IMG/VR virus record: IMGVR_UViG_2693429668_000006 | Reading direction: 5' to 3' (one strand) | Source: a virus | Lineage: Duplodnaviria; Heunggongvirae; Uroviricota; Caudoviricetes | Length of the DNA stretch: 64,000 nt | Shown here: in pieces, positions 11,160 to 44,625 of the stretch | How positions within the stretch are numbered: position 1 is the first letter of the stretch | Layout: each line of letters begins with the position of its first letter | Notes under the pieces: generated by a model | What the model was told of the DNA's origin: nothing | Databases searched by the model: none | Seen by the model: the letters and a program-made list of their open reading frames with translations, nothing else | Program-made: the position numbers and the translations under genes

Positions 11160-11246
11160 TGGCGGAGAGTAATGGAATCGAACCATCATCGTTTGCACAA
11201 TGGGACGGTTTTCAAGACCGCTTGAGCACCATGCTCCCTACTCTCC
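11160..11246 (-). tRNA. tRNA-Ser (anticodon UGA), class II with long variable arm
   Basis: Minus-strand 87 nt: perfect 7-bp acceptor stem GGAGAGT/ACTCTCC, anticodon loop CTTGAAA, T-arm GGTTCGATTCC, encoded CCA; D-arm atypically short. Confidence 0.6.
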
Positions 11247-11540
11247 AATTGTGTTGTGTGCTCCGTTTCGTGGAGCTAACGGCGGGTGATCAGACCGCAC
11301 CAGGTTGGACGTATTTCAGCGTTATGCTGTTGCAAGAGAGCCAAATTGTGATGGCCGGTGCTGATCTCCGGCATTGCCTACGTTAGCGGCCTTCAGGCAG
11401 TTCATCCGCTTGCTTCTACGTCGCACATCAGCCTGTGCATTCACCACAATGTTGAGAACACTGGTTGTCACGCTGCAACGCAACATTATATTCATAAATT
11501 GGGATATGAACCCGTTACGCCAATGTTCTCAATATTATGT

Positions 11541-11616
11541 TGGTGCCGGTTAACGGACTTGAACCGCTGGCCATTTGCTTACAAAGCGACTGCTCTACCA
11601 ACTGAGCTAAACCGGC
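11541..11616 (-). tRNA. tRNA-Thr-like (anticodon UGU), possibly pseudo-tRNA
   Basis: 76 nt; acceptor GCCGGTT/AACCGGC, D-arm GCTCAGTTGGTAGAGC, T-arm GGTTCAAGTCC, CCA; anticodon loop TTTGTAA, but anticodon stem GTCGC/GCAAA has two mismatches. Confidence 0.5.
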
Positions 11617-11620
11617 AATT

Positions 11621-11707
11621 TGGTGGGGAGTGATGGAGTCGAACCACCCGAGTCGCAATGACAGTAGATTTACAGTCTACACCGCTACCTCTACGGACTA
11701 ACTCCCC
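11621..11707 (-). tRNA. tRNA-Tyr (anticodon GUA)
   Basis: 87 nt; acceptor GGGGAGT/ACTCCCC, anticodon stem-loop GTAGA-CTGTAAA-TCTAC, long variable arm, T-loop TTCGACT, encoded CCA. Confidence 0.8.
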
Positions 11708-11712
11708 TAAAT

Positions 11713-11787
11713 TGGCGATGGTGGGTGGATTCGAACCACCGATCAGTTGGTTAACAGCCAACTGCTCTACCGCTGAGCTACACCATC
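11713..11787 (-). tRNA. tRNA-Asn (anticodon GUU)
   Basis: 75 nt canonical cloverleaf: GATGGTG-TA-GCTC-AGCGGTA-GAGC-A-GTTGG-CTGTTAA-CCAAC-TGATC-GGTGG-TTCGAAT-CCACC-CACCATC-G-CCA. Confidence 0.85.
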
Positions 11788-41500: not shown

Positions 41501-43133
41501 TCTGGCTGCCTGCGCCAACTACCCCCATGATCCCTGCTCGCATCAGTTTGAACGCAACCATCGCGGCCACGACCTTACCGAGATTAATTACCAGCTCTTG
41601 GTTCTTTGCTAACCATTGAGCAAGCTGACGCAACCCATCGATTGCCGTCGTTAACCCCGAGCCTAAAGAATTGGCAAACGAAATCCCTTCGGCGCTATTC
41701 ATGATTGAAGCCAGTTCTTTCATCCCCTTCGATAGAGAATCCAGATATCCGGCCTGACCAACCCGATCAGCAAATAACGTGAATGACGTCTGAAGTTGCG
41801 CCAGCGCACCTGTGTAGGTTTGCATCATGTCTTTCGCTGCGTTCTCATTCTCCGCACGCAGACCAACAAACATCAGAGACAACGCCTGTTTTGCCTCAAC
41901 CGTACCGCTGGCAACGGCTTTAGTCAGTTCCCCCATAGTGATGCCTGCGGCGTCTGCCATTGCCTGCATCGCGTTAGGAACGGCTTCACCTAATTGCTGA
42001 CGTAGCTCTTCCATTGACACAACGCCCTTACCGGACATCTGCTGAACGGCCACAGCCGCACGTTTCAACAGCTCACTATCACCACCAAAACGAGCAACGG
42101 AGTCCACCAGCGCCTTCAGAGAACCATCGGTTGGATCTAAGCCAGCAGAACGAAACTTCACGAAGGAATCTGTTAACGCCTGCATCGCGAACGGCGCATT
42201 TTGCGCCATGTCTACGATGTACTTCATATCATCAGCGGCAGCCTGGCCCGGGTTGGACTTCTCCTTATTCAACCCTCGAAGCATCACCCGCATACGTTCC
42301 ATTTCGGCCGCAGCTTCAACAATAGGCTTCTGCCACCCAAACATGATGTCAGTAACCGTTCTGGCTGCATCTCCGATCTCGCCAAGCAGGAAAATGTTGC
42401 CACGAAGGCCAGAGAATATACCTCCTTCGTTACTTTTACCGCTATGGCCAGAAGCGCCGCTACGCCGCCCGCTACCACCATCGCCACTTCCAGATGTACG
42501 AACGCGTACCGGCTTGCTAATCAGTTGCTGACGTCCGATAACTTCGTCCATCTGCTCACGAACCTTTTTCAGTCCCTCGGCAGCCTGACTCGTTGTGACA
42601 CCCCAATTACTGAGTCGCTTCGTCGTGGTATTAAGGCGCGTATTCATGCCACTCACGGACGCAGAGGCTTCTTTGGCCTCCGTACCAAAGCGGCTTGCGC
42701 TTTTGCTTGCATAGGTCGCCCAATCAGAGAAATCATTTAGCTCTGATTGCACTTTACGTAATGACGCGGTGAGTTTATCTACTGAAGAAGTTGTCGTATC
42801 GACGCGCTCAATCAGGGCTTTAAGACCAGAATTGAGGCTGGTGATGTTGCCACGCATTTTACGCGTAGCATCTGAAGCAAGCTCAAAACCGGCAGCTACA
42901 TCCTGTAGTTTATCTGCCGTAGAATCGAGCTTGCTTTCCAGAACGCCAATGATACGGGCGACCGAACCCAAAGAGCGTTCAAAGGTTTGGATTTTTTGAG
43001 CAGGCTTTGTTACCTGCTCACCAAATCGAGTAAGCAGTTTCCCCGCACGATCGATTGACGCTGTAAACTGTTTGTCTTCCAGCGACAGGATAAACTCTAC
43101 GTTTTGTGACATTCCCTTGTCATCCTCTGCCAA
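38559..43133 (-). CDS. tail tape measure protein
   Basis: 1524 aa, largely alpha-helical/coiled-coil with internal hydrophobic segments and Gly-rich C-terminus; directly downstream of tail chaperone pair. Confidence 0.9.
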   Translation of the reverse strand: MAEDDKGMSQNVEFILSLEDKQFTASIDRAGKLLTRFGEQVTKPAQKIQTFERSLGSVARIIGVLESKLDSTADKLQDVAAGFELASDATRKMRGNITSLNSGLKALIERVDTTTSSVDKLTASLRKVQSELNDFSDWATYASKSASRFGTEAKEASASVSGMNTRLNTTTKRLSNWGVTTSQAAEGLKKVREQMDEVIGRQQLISKPVRVRTSGSGDGGSGRRSGASGHSGKSNEGGIFSGLRGNIFLLGEIGDAARTVTDIMFGWQKPIVEAAAEMERMRVMLRGLNKEKSNPGQAAADDMKYIVDMAQNAPFAMQALTDSFVKFRSAGLDPTDGSLKALVDSVARFGGDSELLKRAAVAVQQMSGKGVVSMEELRQQLGEAVPNAMQAMADAAGITMGELTKAVASGTVEAKQALSLMFVGLRAENENAAKDMMQTYTGALAQLQTSFTLFADRVGQAGYLDSLSKGMKELASIMNSAEGISFANSLGSGLTTAIDGLRQLAQWLAKNQELVINLGKVVAAMVAFKLMRAGIMGVVGAGSQMVSTFATMATAIQTPFNLGATAVTRFNRAARMGLAPIPSLIFAIRGAITGLKGAFAGLTAFIAANPIGAAFTVATVAVAGLITYMTMLRSETSKVVDEIRKIPEAMTAAKRAQMADRAEKLEKQILADQRALKTGEGVNYVSNSAGVITHKESKADIEARLKKNQEEYQKITGTIALGDGAVAKRLAKEAAESQIEKIRAENQIFAATFVKARQEALDKIQKINDDGSLSDDEKNKLLAPLRETVNKSYLEPAQKLVDSLSSRKNATEKQIATLNDQLEKAKKDGNTEQIQKLQGSIRGYQEHLEAVAQELTQAEFERDNAAKTGKGVMSNQGTVLGLGTTDKAAQKALAQYMRNQMDSATYQRTLPDGTPMMDFEGKPIIGPKQLKTQLNLQKASSASSLEKMSDEERAAAIAALTKAREQDAAAAEKAAQRSANASQRAAKKEQAAQQKLAAGYQKALDKADQLMGQMGESSKATVSFDQSLRDTTKSLTDLANAVPNEFITQEMIDKAKKRLEDLKNATPEYREMFNRRNVEQMISTWAPEADSIISAGYTPSREEKVADFEDTYNRNLKALIELRDKASDPKVVALYTKKINQLIAAGNTALIKETGTATQKLALEYENLAEQIESTWTDLFSGLTDVLTDFVINGKMSFSSLSQSILKDITNMVVKSQITLPLMNMLGMGTTAAGSSQSGNLLTGVASAVANQGVRISNTVNGDKSVGEATKETSSSVTGLGQTTQQTTSAIGTATNAIGSWVSGLFNSTEAKDAETKAVKDSIFSMQNLSSVTGALSAAFAMLGANASGSGNKWLNFGATVASGLVSVWAGGGFDSVTSSSAKTATSSVADGTKGIPAIPKFANGGIFGKDGVIPLRAYQKGGIANSPQLALFGEGSMNEAYVPLPDGRTIPVTLSTDGMSGGGNVLSPVSIEINVHSDGSTTESGDTESIWNNAAQRMKAIALETIAQEKRPGGSLNPNTQRN

Positions 43134-43389
43134 ATATTTGCATCAGTTGCTCTTTGGCGTCAGGGTCTGCCTTATCCTGGCTTGGATCGTAGACTTTATC
43201 TGTTACGACTGGTCTTCCAATCCTGAGTTGCAAACCCTCCATGAACGCCTTCACAGCCTCGCCATCCGCCTGGGACGCACGAGCGACTTGTAAGTTGCGG
43301 ACATCCTCTTCCGCACGCAGACGGTCTATATTGCGACTGAGCATCCAGAACATCGTGAGAGGAACGTTCAGTAGCTCTAATGGCGACAC
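43120..43389 (-). CDS. tail assembly chaperone, downstream (-1 frame) segment; likely expressed as a frameshift fusion
   Basis: ORF-track start is GTG with no SD; the same frame is open upstream to 43506, overlapping the 3' end of the G-like gene in the -1 frame. Confidence 0.55.
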   Translation of the reverse strand: MSPLELLNVPLTMFWMLSRNIDRLRAEEDVRNLQVARASQADGEAVKAFMEGLQLRIGRPVVTDKVYDPSQDKADPDAKEQLMQIFGRG

Positions 43390-43469
43390 GGCGTAGTGAG
43401 CAACTACACGACTGAAATAGAATCCGAGATCTATTGAGACGGTCCTTGTCCCGGATTCATCGCGGGAAA

Positions 43470-43787
43470 TTACTTTGCCCCTTCGCCAGCCGCTTTTTCG
43501 TTTTCTTCATCAATCACTTCCATAGCGAAGGTGAAGATCTGCTGGAGTTGCGGAACAGTCAGTTTTTCAAGAACTTCGTCAGGTACTGAAGGGATAACCT
43601 TACGAACCAGATCTGCATAAGCTGTCACTTGCTCAACAGGAGACATATTCATGAGATCTTTGCCTTCCATCTGCTTGATGGAAACGAACAGACCTACCGT
43701 CATTTCAACGATGGGATATTCCTGACCGCCAAATTTGATGCTTTTCTTCGGAGGCAGAATGGAATCTAGATCGAGTAATTTGGTCAT
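43470..43787 (-). CDS. tail assembly chaperone (gpG-like)
   Basis: 105 aa acidic protein between major tail and tape measure genes; SD AAAGGA upstream. Confidence 0.7.
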   Translation of the reverse strand: MTKLLDLDSILPPKKSIKFGGQEYPIVEMTVGLFVSIKQMEGKDLMNMSPVEQVTAYADLVRKVIPSVPDEVLEKLTVPQLQQIFTFAMEVIDEENEKAAGEGAK

Positions 43788-43799
43788 TGGTTAAAATCC

Positions 43800-43828
43800 T
43801 TTTAAAAGAGAGGCCCATCCTGAGCCTC
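43800..43828 (-). terminator. rho-independent terminator directly after the major tail protein gene
   Basis: Stem GAGGC-ccatcctga-GCCTC; on minus strand followed by TCTTTTAAAAGGATTTT. Confidence 0.5.
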
Positions 43829-43842
43829 TGCTTAATTACTGA

Positions 43843-44625
43843 TTAATCTGCGGGGTTAATCGTTACTGACTTAGTTGCCTTCTTACCACCGCTATTGCTG
43901 GTGAAGGAGATATTTGTAGAACCCTGCGCCACACCACGTACCAGACCCGTTTGATCTACCGTGGCCTTTTCCTGGTCTTCGGATTCCCAAACACCGGTTT
44001 TGTCTGCGGCATCAGCTGGAGTGATTTCGGCTGTCAGTTGCACAGTTTCTCCAGCTTTTACGGTTGGAGATTCCGGTGAGATCGACACAGTTTTTACCGG
44101 TTTAGGACCGCTCATTTTGCCCAGAACGCCTTCATCATCCGGGTATGCGCTGAACTGAACAGAGAACACACGAACATCATCAGACTGGTAGGTCATAGTG
44201 AAGTTGCCCGCGGTTGCCGCTTTCGGGATGGTCAACACATAGTCGGTGGTGTCCTGCGGAGTCAGAACCAGCTCCTTCGCCACATCAATCAGGTTAACGC
44301 CCTGTGCAGATGTGATCGTGACAGAGTTGTCATCTTCGCTCAGAGTAGAACCAGGCATCAGGTCAACCATGTTTTGGAGTACAGACTCAGCCAGAGGCGC
44401 GGTGATGGTAATGTTGCGCCCCTGAACTAATTCGGAAATTACGGTCTGCCCCAACTGATCGACGGTGACTTTCAGCGTTTCAGTGGCTACTTCAACCTGA
44501 ACACCACCTTTGGTGTAACCCAAATCCACACCACCAAACGACACCTTACAGGCACCAAGTTTGATGTTTTTTACATGGGTATTAGACATTGATGGAAAAC
44601 TCCTTTTTCCGTTAATTCTACGCAT
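43843..44625 (-). CDS. major tail protein with C-terminal Ig-like (Big_2) domain
   Basis: 260 aa; C-terminal Big_2-like segment; real start possibly the internal ATG (MSNTHV) near 44586. Confidence 0.75.
   Translation of the reverse strand: MRRINGKRSFPSMSNTHVKNIKLGACKVSFGGVDLGYTKGGVQVEVATETLKVTVDQLGQTVISELVQGRNITITAPLAESVLQNMVDLMPGSTLSEDDNSVTITSAQGVNLIDVAKELVLTPQDTTDYVLTIPKAATAGNFTMTYQSDDVRVFSVQFSAYPDDEGVLGKMSGPKPVKTVSISPESPTVKAGETVQLTAEITPADAADKTGVWESEDQEKATVDQTGLVRGVAQGSTNISFTSNSGGKKATKSVTINPAD

What the first reader, a model, noticed from the sequence alone, without database searches (positions are those of the whole stretch)
43389..43506. Probable programmed -1 translational frameshift in the tail assembly chaperone pair, without a canonical slippery heptamer
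The ORF downstream of the gpG-like chaperone (43470-43787) has only a GTG start with no Shine-Dalgarno, but its reading frame is open upstream to 43506 and lies in the -1 frame relative to the chaperone, overlapping its last 12 codons. That is the conserved G/GT frameshift architecture of long-tailed phages. I could not find a classical XXXYYYZ heptamer in the overlap (sequence GAAAACGAAAAAGCGGCTGGCGAAGGGGCAAAG), so the slip site may be non-canonical.
Basis: partly seen in the sequence, partly recalled or inferred. Interest (0 to 1): 0.45.

Follow-up and report, generated by a model that had tools for sequence, protein, structure and literature searches.

The report
Tail chaperone frameshift at A_AAG-stop
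Two small unnamed genes between the tail-tube and tape-measure genes of this SSU5-like phage-plasmid are almost certainly the usual tail-assembly chaperone pair joined by a -1 ribosomal frameshift. The slip happens on a minimal A_AAG site at the very last codon before the stop, not on a classical seven-base slippery sequence.

Summary
All features are on the minus strand.

- **Genes.** A 105-aa ORF (43787-43470) is followed by an ORF in its -1 frame. That frame is open from 43506, and its first start codon (GTG 43389) has no Shine-Dalgarno. The overlap contains no X_XXY_YYZ heptamer.
- **Element.** The window is an SSU5-like phage-plasmid.
- **Frame conservation.** In every relative examined the downstream ORF is in the -1 frame. 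These span Enterobacterales, Aeromonas, Acinetobacter, Photobacterium, Pseudomonas, Stenotrophomonas, Rhizobium and Methylobacterium.
- **Linker is translated.** The best-conserved motif (S-I-D-[LF]-G-F-Y-F-S-R) lies upstream of any start codon. The linker evolves with codon periodicity in the -1 frame (p = 6e-4).
- **Slip site.** Many relatives (SSU5, pMT1 and others) have a -1-frame TGA three codons before the stop. This confines the shift to GAA GGG GCA AAG TAA. Only G[C/T]A_AAG + TAA/TAG is conserved, down to 49% identity. Outgroups carry canonical G_GGA_AAG, C_CCA_AAG or A_AAA_AAG.
- **Most likely mechanism.** tRNA-Lys slips from AAG to AAA at 43476-43473, giving a 222-aa fusion.
- **Unproven.** A downstream hairpin is a possible stimulator.
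- **Verdict.** A new, unannotated member of a known kind, of moderate interest.

The parts
43470..43787 (-). G-like tail assembly chaperone ORF (105 aa; ATG 43787; stop TAA 43472-43470)
   Evidence: Searches give the ORF. It matches PHROG 893 (E 4.5e-49, 'unknown function') and no Pfam family. The AlphaFold model has pLDDT 72. Its best BFVD match is named 'Tail assembly chaperone' (E 2.8e-4). The anti-SD duplex upstream of the ATG is -5.4 kcal/mol.
43473..43478 (-). Proposed slip site: hexamer GCA_AAG. The tetramer A_AAG is 43476-43473. tRNA-Lys re-pairs from AAG (43475-43473) to AAA (43476-43474).
   Evidence: This is the only motif in the overlap that allows -1 re-pairing and is conserved. 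G[C/T]A AAG TA[A/G] is present in all Enterobacterales-type junctions seen. The neighbouring Gly codon, by contrast, shows all four synonymous forms. A -1-frame TGA three codons upstream in SSU5, pMT1, Morganella, Xenorhabdus hominickii, Moellerella and others excludes any earlier site.
43470..43472 (-). 0-frame stop codon TAA directly after the slip codon; possibly part of the signal
   Evidence: The stop is adjacent to AAG in every tetramer-type relative. It is also adjacent in Aeromonas, Acinetobacter and L183, which have canonical heptamers. Any role in pausing the ribosome is inferred.
43120..43473 (-). T segment read in the -1 frame after the shift. It runs from GUA 43473-43471 to stop TGA 43122-43120 (117 aa). 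The predicted G-T fusion is 222 aa.
   Evidence: Searches give the reading. It matches PHROG 1131 from the GTG onwards. tblastn homology in distant phages starts at fusion residues 108-119, upstream of the GTG. Invariant D120 and near-invariant I119, F123, R127 and Y132 lie in the start-less part.
43390..43469 (-). Linker between the G stop and the first possible start codon of the T frame: no ATG, GTG or TTG, yet protein-coding in the -1 frame
   Evidence: Variable alignment columns by T-frame codon position are 15/28, 10/28 and 24/28, chi-square p = 6e-4. Changes among close relatives are synonymous in the T frame, and the GTG becomes GTA in the Klebsiella lineage.
43507..43512 (-). TGA TGA in the -1 frame: the upstream limit of the open -1 frame in this window
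   Evidence: and direct reading.
43493..43499 (-). GAA_AAA_G: an alternative weak A_AAA slip site present in this window but not conserved
   Evidence: It is replaced by GAA GCC GC in 60-70% relatives. In many lineages it is separated from T by a -1-frame TGA.
43407..43464 (-). Candidate stimulatory stem-loop. The upper stem pairs 43458-43451 with 43427-43420. A weak lower stem pairs 43464-43459 with 43412-43407. It begins 8 nt (lower stem) or 14 nt (upper stem) after AAG.
   Evidence: RNAalifold predicts the upper stem independently. In it, 96.9% of cells are paired and one pair covaries (UA 7, GC 3, AU 1, UG 1). The lower stem has no covariation. The fold of the window's own sequence is not significant (z -0.5). 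Lineage L114 lacks the hairpin.
43843..44625 (-). Upstream neighbour: Ig-domain tail tube (major tail) protein gene
   Evidence: Pfam Big_2 (E 5.8e-26). PHROG 1280 and major tail protein families. Annotated as 'Tail protein' in phage Cyrano.
38559..43112 (-). Downstream neighbour: tape measure protein gene (ATG 43112)
   Evidence: Pfam TMP_3 and Tape_meas_lam_C. PHROG 1292 over the full length. The anti-SD duplex upstream of the ATG is -5.8 kcal/mol.

Best explanation
The two ORFs are the G and T parts of a phage tail assembly chaperone.

- **Standard decoding** gives G (105 aa), ending at UAA 43472-43470.
- **The shift.** A minority of ribosomes shift -1 on the last sense codon. tRNA-Lys, decoding AAG 43475-43473, re-pairs with AAA 43476-43474. 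The next codon read is then GUA 43473-43471, and translation continues to 43120.
- **The product** is a 222-aa G-T fusion: ...GEGAK-VISRDESG...IDLGFYFSRV...
- **The site** is a tetramer/hexamer of the NNA_AAG type (GCA_AAG). The upstream tRNA-Ala has no re-pairing option. The site descends from an ancestral canonical G_GGA_AAG-stop signal that outgroups still carry.

**What is shown.** The frame arrangement, translation of the linker in the -1 frame, the restriction of the shift window to the last 3-4 codons, and conservation of GYA_AAG + stop.

**What is inferred.** The exact tRNA event, the low efficiency, any help from the adjacent stop codon or from the downstream hairpin at 43464-43407, and the role of T in recruiting tail-tube subunits by analogy with lambda gpGT.
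For: - **Synteny.** Tail terminator, Ig tail tube, G, T, tape measure.
- **Frame.** T is in the -1 frame, overlapping the 3' end of G, in all homologues analysed. These include SSU5, Klebsiella, pMT1 and Buttiauxella, and Photorhabdus, Morganella, Xenorhabdus and Photobacterium. They also include Aeromonas, Acinetobacter, Moellerella and Methylobacterium, the Pseudomonas, Rhizobium and Stenotrophomonas phages, and metagenome contigs.
- **Linker homology.** Distant tblastn matches begin at fusion residues 108-119, inside the start-less linker. The most conserved residues of T lie there.
- **Linker periodicity.** Third-position excess in the T frame, p = 6e-4.
- **No stable start.** The GTG is lost in the Klebsiella lineage. 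Annotators chose different starts, giving 89, 77, 75 and 55 aa. There is no SD and no promoter or terminator between the ORFs.
- **Shift window.** A -1-frame TGA three codons before the stop occurs in 29 of 78 IMG/VR loci and in many other lineages.
- **Conserved motif.** GYA AAG TAR is invariant across all Enterobacterales-type junctions, while flanking codons vary synonymously.
- **Outgroups.** They have canonical heptamers at the same place: G_GGA_AAG, G_GGA_AAA, C_CCA_AAG, G_GGA_AAC, A_AAA_AAG and A_AAA_AAA.
- **Literature.** A_AAG is the most shift-prone tetramer in E. coli (PMC4066793). NNA_AAG sites function in cdd and IS1222 (PMC5009743).
Against: - **No direct evidence.** No fusion protein has been detected.
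- **Weak site alone.** Without a stimulator, A_AAG gave only about 0.15% frameshifting in reporter constructs, against 5.6% with a strong pseudoknot (PMC4066793). No stimulator is proven here.
- **Hairpin doubts.** The hairpin is largely imposed by Glu/Phe and Ser/Gly codon complementarity. It is not significant in this window (z -0.5) and is absent in lineage L114.
- **Strong terminator.** From my own knowledge, UAA-U is a strong termination context. That does not favour a slow stop.
- **No conserved SD-like element.** The SD-like GAAGGGG upstream is not conserved.
- **Family membership.** G and T match no curated chaperone family. The matches to solved structures are weak.
Confidence: 0.8

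Rival explanations
1. T is made only as a separate small protein from its own start (GTG 43389 or ATG 43353/43344). The open frame upstream is incidental.
For: Gene callers annotate it this way in all records seen. PHROG 1131 starts at the GTG. In isolation, a 39-codon open extension has a chance probability of about 0.15.
Against: The linker is conserved as protein in distant phages and holds the invariant I-D-x-x-F motif. It shows codon periodicity in the T frame. The GTG is GTA or ATT in Klebsiella lineages. There is no SD. Annotated starts differ between relatives.
Confidence: 0.05
2. In this window the shift occurs mainly at the upstream GAA_AAA_G run (43499-43493). The fusion then has the junction ...ENEK-SGWRRGKVISRDE...
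For: The -1 frame is open there in this window. A_AAA is a weakly shift-prone tetramer (PMC4066793). One metagenome protein call (P0001) follows that path, though probably through an assembly indel.
Against: The site is replaced by GAA GCC GC in relatives of 60-70% identity. A -1-frame TGA lies between it and T in SSU5, pMT1 and 29 of 78 IMG/VR loci. It therefore cannot be the conserved functional site.
Confidence: 0.05
3. T is reached by termination-reinitiation, or by non-AUG initiation right after the G stop (for example AUU 43470-43468), rather than by frameshifting.
For: Some outgroups do have a start codon close to the G stop. Stenotrophomonas phage BUCTxx99 has a TAATG overlap, Aeromonas has a GTG three codons after the stop, and Acinetobacter has a TTG.
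Against: In the Enterobacterales clade the codon after GUA is AUU, AUA, GUU, ACA or GAA, so there is no conserved start-like codon. No SD precedes it. The conservation of A_AAG, rather than AAA or other Lys/Ala codon choices, would go unexplained.
Confidence: 0.05
4. Transcriptional slippage by RNA polymerase produces an mRNA with one extra or one missing A, and this joins the frames.
For: Same-frame outcomes are possible in principle. Some outgroups have long A runs, such as A8-9 in BUCTxx99.
Against: The conserved run here is only three A's (CAAAG). From my own knowledge, that is far below the lengths known to support transcriptional slippage.
Confidence: 0.01

Closest known systems
Phage lambda gpG/gpGT and the conserved tail-assembly-chaperone frameshift of long-tailed phages (Levin 1993; Xu, Hendrix & Duda 2004, as cited in PMC5009743)
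   Same: Two small ORFs lie between the major tail and tape measure genes. The second ORF is in the -1 frame, overlaps the end of the first, and has no start of its own. The slip site is within a few codons of the stop. The expected outcome is an abundant short product plus a rare fusion.
   Different: Lambda uses the canonical heptamer G_GGA_AAG, where both tRNAs re-pair. Here the P-site half is GCA or GUA with a variable preceding base, so only tRNA-Lys can re-pair. The proteins match no curated chaperone family in Pfam or PHROGs.
NNA_AAG hexanucleotide -1 sites: Bacillus subtilis cdd (A_CGA_AAG) and IS1222 (G_CGA_AAG) (PMC5009743); A_AAG as the best Z_ZZN tetramer in E. coli (PMC4066793)
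   Same: Single-tRNA slippage of tRNA-Lys from AAG to AAA, without re-pairing of the upstream tRNA. Low intrinsic efficiency. Dependence on the identity of the 5' NNA codon.
   Different: The 5' codon here is GCA or GUA rather than CGA. The site is the last sense codon, directly before a stop. The stimulators known for those cases (an upstream SD, a pseudoknot or a stem-loop) are not demonstrated here.
Homologous G/T pairs of Aeromonas caviae plasmid p1, Acinetobacter baumannii phage-plasmids and Photobacterium ganghwense
   Same: The same protein family and the same -1 arrangement. The slip codon AAG is at or next to the stop (G_GGA_AAG TAA, G_GGA_AAG TAG, and G_GGA_AAG GAA TAA).
   Different: They keep the full canonical heptamer. 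The Enterobacterales clade, including this window, has lost the GGA codon to GCA or GUA.
E. coli dnaX A_AAA_AAG frameshift
   Same: It exploits the weak AAG pairing of the single E. coli tRNA-Lys (PMC5009743).
   Different: dnaX has a full heptamer, an upstream SD-like element and a strong stem-loop, and shifts at about 50%. None of these features is established here.

Membership tests
Tail assembly chaperone G/GT pair with programmed -1 frameshift | Two small ORFs located between the major tail (tube) protein gene and the tape measure gene | tested here: met
   Big_2 tail tube at 43843-44625, G at 43787-43470, T at 43476-43120, tape measure from 43112.
Tail assembly chaperone G/GT pair with programmed -1 frameshift | The second ORF overlaps the 3' end of the first in the -1 frame and lacks its own start and SD | tested here: met
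   Frame analysis. No start codon in 43506-43390. Anti-SD duplex of 0 kcal/mol or weaker.
Tail assembly chaperone G/GT pair with programmed -1 frameshift | The arrangement is conserved in diverged relatives, and the overlap or linker is under coding selection in the second frame | tested here: met
   The -1 arrangement holds in all lineages analysed. Linker periodicity p = 6e-4. Distant homology starts in the linker.
Tail assembly chaperone G/GT pair with programmed -1 frameshift | Canonical X_XXY_YYZ slippery heptamer in the overlap | tested here: not met
   None in 43505-43470 (direct reading). Distant homologues do have one.
Tail assembly chaperone G/GT pair with programmed -1 frameshift | Sequence or fold relationship of the first protein to known tail assembly chaperones | tested here: inconclusive
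Tail assembly chaperone G/GT pair with programmed -1 frameshift | Both a short product and a frameshifted fusion are produced, and both are needed for tail assembly | not testable with these tools
   This needs protein detection and genetics.
Z_ZZN / NNA_AAG single-tRNA -1 frameshift sites | A_AAG in the 0 frame, with the -1 frame open across it and continuing into a long ORF | tested here: met
   GCA AAG at 43478-43473. -1 frame codons GGC AAA GUA....
Z_ZZN / NNA_AAG single-tRNA -1 frameshift sites | The motif is conserved against synonymous drift | tested here: met
   The Lys codon is always AAG and the preceding codon is always GCA or GUA in all Enterobacterales-type junctions. The Gly codon three positions upstream is GGC, GGT, GGA or GGG.
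Z_ZZN / NNA_AAG single-tRNA -1 frameshift sites | A stimulatory element (upstream SD-like sequence or downstream structure) at suitable spacing | tested here: inconclusive
   The upstream SD-like sequence is not conserved. The downstream hairpin is 96.9% paired with one covarying pair. It is codon-imposed in part, not significant in the window, and missing in L114.
Z_ZZN / NNA_AAG single-tRNA -1 frameshift sites | The 5' NNA codon is read by a tRNA with high wobble propensity, and the host has a single tRNA-Lys(UUU) | not testable with these tools
   The principle comes from PMC5009743. That GCA and GUA are read by cmo5U34 tRNAs in E. coli is my own knowledge. The window encodes no tRNA-Lys.

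The most novel reading that the evidence does not exclude
The Enterobacterales SSU5/pMT1/pHCM2-type phage-plasmids carry a distinct, evolutionarily stable class of G/T recoding signal. The ancestral heptamer G_GGA_AAG has decayed to the tetramer A_AAG placed on the last sense codon. Adequate efficiency would then come from the adjacent stop codon together with a hairpin embedded in the T coding sequence (43464-43407), not from P-site re-pairing.
Probability: 0.3. Interest if true: 0.5.

Novelty: new member of a known kind. Interest (0 to 1): 0.4.

Why it matters
**Annotation.** The gene pair is annotated as two hypothetical proteins in every record seen. tblastn found it in about 800-950 plasmids of PLSDB. 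These include Yersinia pestis pMT1 and plasmids of Salmonella, Klebsiella, E. coli and Enterobacter. It is also present in SSU5-like phage genomes. Its two PHROG families (893 and 1131) are labelled 'unknown function'. Recognising the pair as a frameshifted tail assembly chaperone would correct the annotation of a large, clinically common phage-plasmid group.

**Prediction tools.** The case shows that frameshift predictors which require an XXXYYYZ heptamer will miss this family.

**Recoding biology.** It offers a natural series from G_GGA_AAG to N_GYA_AAG at the same position in homologous genes. That series could be used to measure how much P-site re-pairing, an adjacent stop codon and a downstream hairpin each contribute in E. 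coli.

Tried and rejected
- **Upstream SD-like stimulator (GAAGGGG, or GGUGA in relatives).** Rejected. The sequence varies freely: GGC, GGT, GGA or GGG, then GAA or GAC, then GGG, GAG, GAA, GAC or GAT.
- **Upstream GAA_AAA_G as the slip site.** Rejected as the conserved site.
- **Small hairpin UCCCG/CGGGA right after the stop.** Not conserved in Photorhabdus or Xenorhabdus.
- **Outer helix AGUAAU/GUUGCU from RNAalifold.** It includes the slip site itself, and the TAG variants give only G-U pairs. Not pursued.
- **Lower stem 43464-43459 / 43412-43407.** 80.6% paired, no covariation.
- **Pfam on window proteins and eight distant G homologues.** No family above threshold.
- **PDB Foldseek.** No significant match.
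- **Protein search with the fusion.** It returned only six chimeric or indel-containing metagenome calls and no annotated fusion.
- **Genome-contig scan with the broad alignment.** It was repeated successfully with a narrower alignment.
- **Literature.** No paper held links SSU5 to a frameshift. Licznar 2003 could not be opened.

Full report
**What is in the sequence.**
The genes lie on the minus strand.
- **G.** A 105-aa ORF starts at ATG 43787 behind a good Shine-Dalgarno (anti-SD duplex -5.4 kcal/mol). It ends ...GAA GGG GCA AAG TAA, with the stop at 43472-43470.
- **T.** The next ORF is listed from GTG 43389 to 43120 (89 aa). It lies in the -1 frame relative to G.
- **Overlap.** The -1 frame is open back to 43506, just after TGA TGA.
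- **No start or signals.** The -1 frame has no ATG, GTG or TTG between 43506 and 43389. The three candidate starts have no SD (+0.9, +0.4 and 0.0 kcal/mol). No promoter-like or terminator-like site separates the ORFs.
- **No heptamer.** Read in the G frame, the overlap contains no X_XXY_YYZ heptamer.

On its own, a frame that stays open for 39 extra codons is not unusual (about 0.15 by chance).

**Context.**
- **Identity of the element.** The window is 99.6-99.7% identical here to Escherichia phages CMS-2020a and Cyrano. It is 87-95% identical to Salmonella phage SSU5 and to Klebsiella phage-plasmids.
- **Gene order.** The order is tail terminator (PF12691), Ig-domain tail tube protein (Big_2), the two small ORFs, then the tape measure protein (TMP_3, Tape_meas_lam_C). 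This is the position of the tail assembly chaperone genes.
- **Family matches.** Neither small protein hits Pfam. They fall in PHROG 893 and PHROG 1131, both labelled 'unknown function'.

**Is the linker translated in the -1 frame?** Four results say yes.
1. A tblastn search with the hypothetical fusion found distant homologues (24-37% identity) in Pseudomonas Nickievirus, Rhizobium and Stenotrophomonas phages. Their matches begin at fusion residues 108-119, well upstream of the GTG at residue 139.
2. In an alignment of eleven fusions, the invariant D120 and the near-invariant I119, F123, R127 and Y132 all lie in the start-less linker.
3. Across twelve Enterobacterales lineages, the 28 linker codons vary at T-frame positions 1, 2 and 3 in 15, 10 and 24 columns (chi-square p = 6e-4).
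4. The GTG itself is GTA in the Klebsiella phage lineage and ATT in others. The amino acids encoded around it remain conserved. Annotators have chosen starts that give 89, 77, 75 or 55 aa in different records.

T is in the -1 frame and overlaps the end of G in every lineage I analysed.
- Close relatives.
- Photorhabdus, Morganella, two Xenorhabdus species, Photobacterium and an Oxalobacter MAG.
- Aeromonas, Acinetobacter, Moellerella and Methylobacterium.
- Azospirillum.
- Metagenome contigs.

**Where is the slip?**
- **A TGA narrows the window.** In this window the -1 frame is open for 11 codons before the stop. In SSU5, Y. pestis pMT1 and Buttiauxella, a synonymous GGC to GGT change in G creates a TGA in the -1 frame three codons before the stop. 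The same is seen in Klebsiella IR12073, Morganella, X. hominickii and Moellerella, and in 29 of 78 IMG/VR loci. In those genomes the shift must occur within GAA GNN GYA AAG.
- **The upstream run is not conserved.** GAA_AAA_G (43499-43493) becomes GAA GCC GC in relatives of 60-70% identity.
- **What is conserved.** The only element invariant across the Enterobacterales-type clade, down to 49% protein identity, is G[C/T]A AAG followed at once by TAA or TAG. The base before it is G, A, C or T. The two preceding codons vary (GGG, GAG, GAA, GAC, GAT). The Gly codon upstream uses all four synonymous forms.
- **Why this matters.** Constant use of the rarer Lys codon AAG, and of an A-ending Ala or Val codon, against that background of synonymous turnover argues for selection on A_AAG itself.

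**Outgroups show the ancestry.** All outgroups with an identifiable site have a canonical heptamer in the G frame at or near the stop.

| Relative | Site |
|---|---|
| Aeromonas caviae | G_GGA_AAG TAA |
| Acinetobacter baumannii | G_GGA_AAG TAG |
| Photobacterium | G_GGA_AAG GAA TAA |
| Pseudomonas phage hairong | G_GGA_AAA |
| Pseudomonas phage ZY21 | C_CCA_AAG |
| Rhizobium phage V1VFA-S | G_GGA_AAG |
| Rhizobium phage RHEph10 and Methylobacterium | G_GGA_AAC |
| Stenotrophomonas phage BUCTxx99 and contig L184 | A_AAA_AAA |
| Oxalobacter MAG and contig L183 | A_AAA_AAG |

The Enterobacterales clade therefore looks like a decayed G_GGA_AAG-stop signal. The P-site codon GGA became GCA or GUA, and the base before it drifted.

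**Mechanism.**
- **The event.** The best-supported reading is single-tRNA slippage. tRNA-Lys on AAG (43475-43473) re-pairs with AAA (43476-43474). GUA (43473-43471) is read next, and a 222-aa fusion results.
- **Precedent.** This is the documented Z_ZZN / NNA_AAG class.
  - A_AAG is the most shift-prone tetramer in E. coli. It gave 5.6% with the IS3 pseudoknot and about 0.15% without a stimulator (PMC4066793).
  - A_CGA_AAG and G_CGA_AAG operate in B. subtilis cdd and in IS1222. Efficiency depends on the wobble propensity of the tRNA reading the 5' NNA codon (PMC5009743).
  - From my own knowledge, GCA and GUA are read by cmo5U34 tRNAs in E. coli. That would fit this rule.
- **What supplies the stimulation is not settled.**
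  - *Stop codon.* It is adjacent to AAG in every tetramer-type lineage. It is also adjacent in three canonical-heptamer outgroups, and UAA-U is a strong terminator (own knowledge). A pausing role is only an inference.
  - *Upstream element.* An SD-like sequence upstream is not conserved.
  - *Downstream hairpin, support.* RNAalifold independently predicts an 8-bp stem, 43458-43451 with 43427-43420. 96.9% of its cells are paired. One pair covaries through UA, GC, AU and UG, its 3' partner being the free third base of a Gly codon. Slid controls give 22-71% pairing. Downstream 75-nt folds are more stable relative to shuffles in the tetramer clade (mean z -2.2) than in heptamer outgroups (mean z -1.0; one-sided Mann-Whitney p = 0.027, not corrected for phylogeny).
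  - *Downstream hairpin, doubts.* Three of the eight pairs are forced by Glu (GAR) and Phe (UUY) codon complementarity. The possible lower stem, which would set an 8-nt spacer, shows no covariation. The window's own fold is unremarkable (z -0.5). One lineage, L114, lacks the stem.
  - *Rating.* I put the hairpin as a stimulator at about 0.3.

**Rivals.**
- **Independent initiation of T.** It cannot explain the conserved, periodic, start-less linker.
- **Reinitiation or non-AUG initiation just after the stop.** This is conceivable in a few outgroups: TAATG in BUCTxx99, GTG in Aeromonas and TTG in Acinetobacter. The corresponding codon in the Enterobacterales clade is AUU, AUA, GUU, ACA or GAA.
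- **Transcriptional slippage.** Implausible on a run of three A's.
- **The upstream A-run.** It may leak in this particular window, but it is not the conserved site.

**Novelty.**
- **Unannotated.** None of the GenBank or RefSeq records inspected annotates a frameshift. The pair is 'hypothetical protein (x2)' across the roughly 800-950 plasmids found by tblastn and in the phage records.
- **Not in the literature held.** No paper in the held library links SSU5 to a frameshift.
- **But both parts are known.** The system (a G/GT chaperone frameshift) and the site type (NNA_AAG) are both established. Non-heptamer chaperone sites have been noted before: three of the 28 Xu et al. cases have motifs outside those searched by PRFect (PMC10885494).
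- **Filing.** I file this as a new, unannotated member of a known kind, with a modest twist. The twist is a conserved tetramer-at-the-stop signal derived from a canonical heptamer.

Noticed in passing
window 11160-11787 (minus strand): A cluster of four tRNA genes: Ser-UGA, Thr-UGU, Tyr-GUA and Asn-GUU. There is no tRNA-Lys, so the element does not supply its own slip-site tRNA.
   Followed up: no
window 43800-43829 (minus strand): Between the tail-tube stop (43843) and the G start there is an 8-bp hairpin, AGAGGCUC-AGGAU-GGGCCUCU (43829-43809), followed by CUUUUAAAA. It looks like a weak intrinsic terminator or attenuator that could lower chaperone and tape-measure expression relative to the tube protein. 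The consensus scan did not flag it.
   Followed up: no
window 43112-43133 and 43120-43122: The ORF list starts the tape measure gene at TTG 43133. The SD-backed ATG at 43112 is the start used in related records and matches PHROG 1292 from residue 1. The T stop (43122-43120) lies just upstream of it.
   Followed up: partly
L008 (Stenotrophomonas phage BUCTxx99) 1150-1225: This distant homologue has both a canonical A_AAA_AAA heptamer nine codons before the G stop and a TAATG stop-start overlap that puts an ATG in the T frame. Two routes to T are therefore possible there.
   Followed up: partly
L013 (Azospirillum sp. B510 pAB510b) 900-960: T is again in the -1 frame, but I found no clear canonical heptamer near the G stop (GCG GGC AAG CGG GGG AGC CGT CGG GCA CGC TGA). 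The -1 frame is open for 113 codons in this GC-rich sequence.
   Followed up: no
P0001 (ENA metagenome protein): A called protein runs from the G frame into the T frame at the GAAAAAG run (...EENEK-SGWRRGKVISRDE...). This most likely reflects a homopolymer indel in that assembly, not evidence of recoding.
   Followed up: no
window about 43390-43530 versus flanks (alignment A1): Among relatives 87-95% identical overall, the stretch from the last ~25 codons of G through the linker is almost invariant at the nucleotide level. Synonymous sites vary freely on both sides. This fits dual coding plus possible RNA structure.
   Followed up: partly
PHROG 893 and PHROG 1131: Both families are labelled 'unknown function'. 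The evidence here suggests they are the G and T parts of a tail assembly chaperone.
   Followed up: partly
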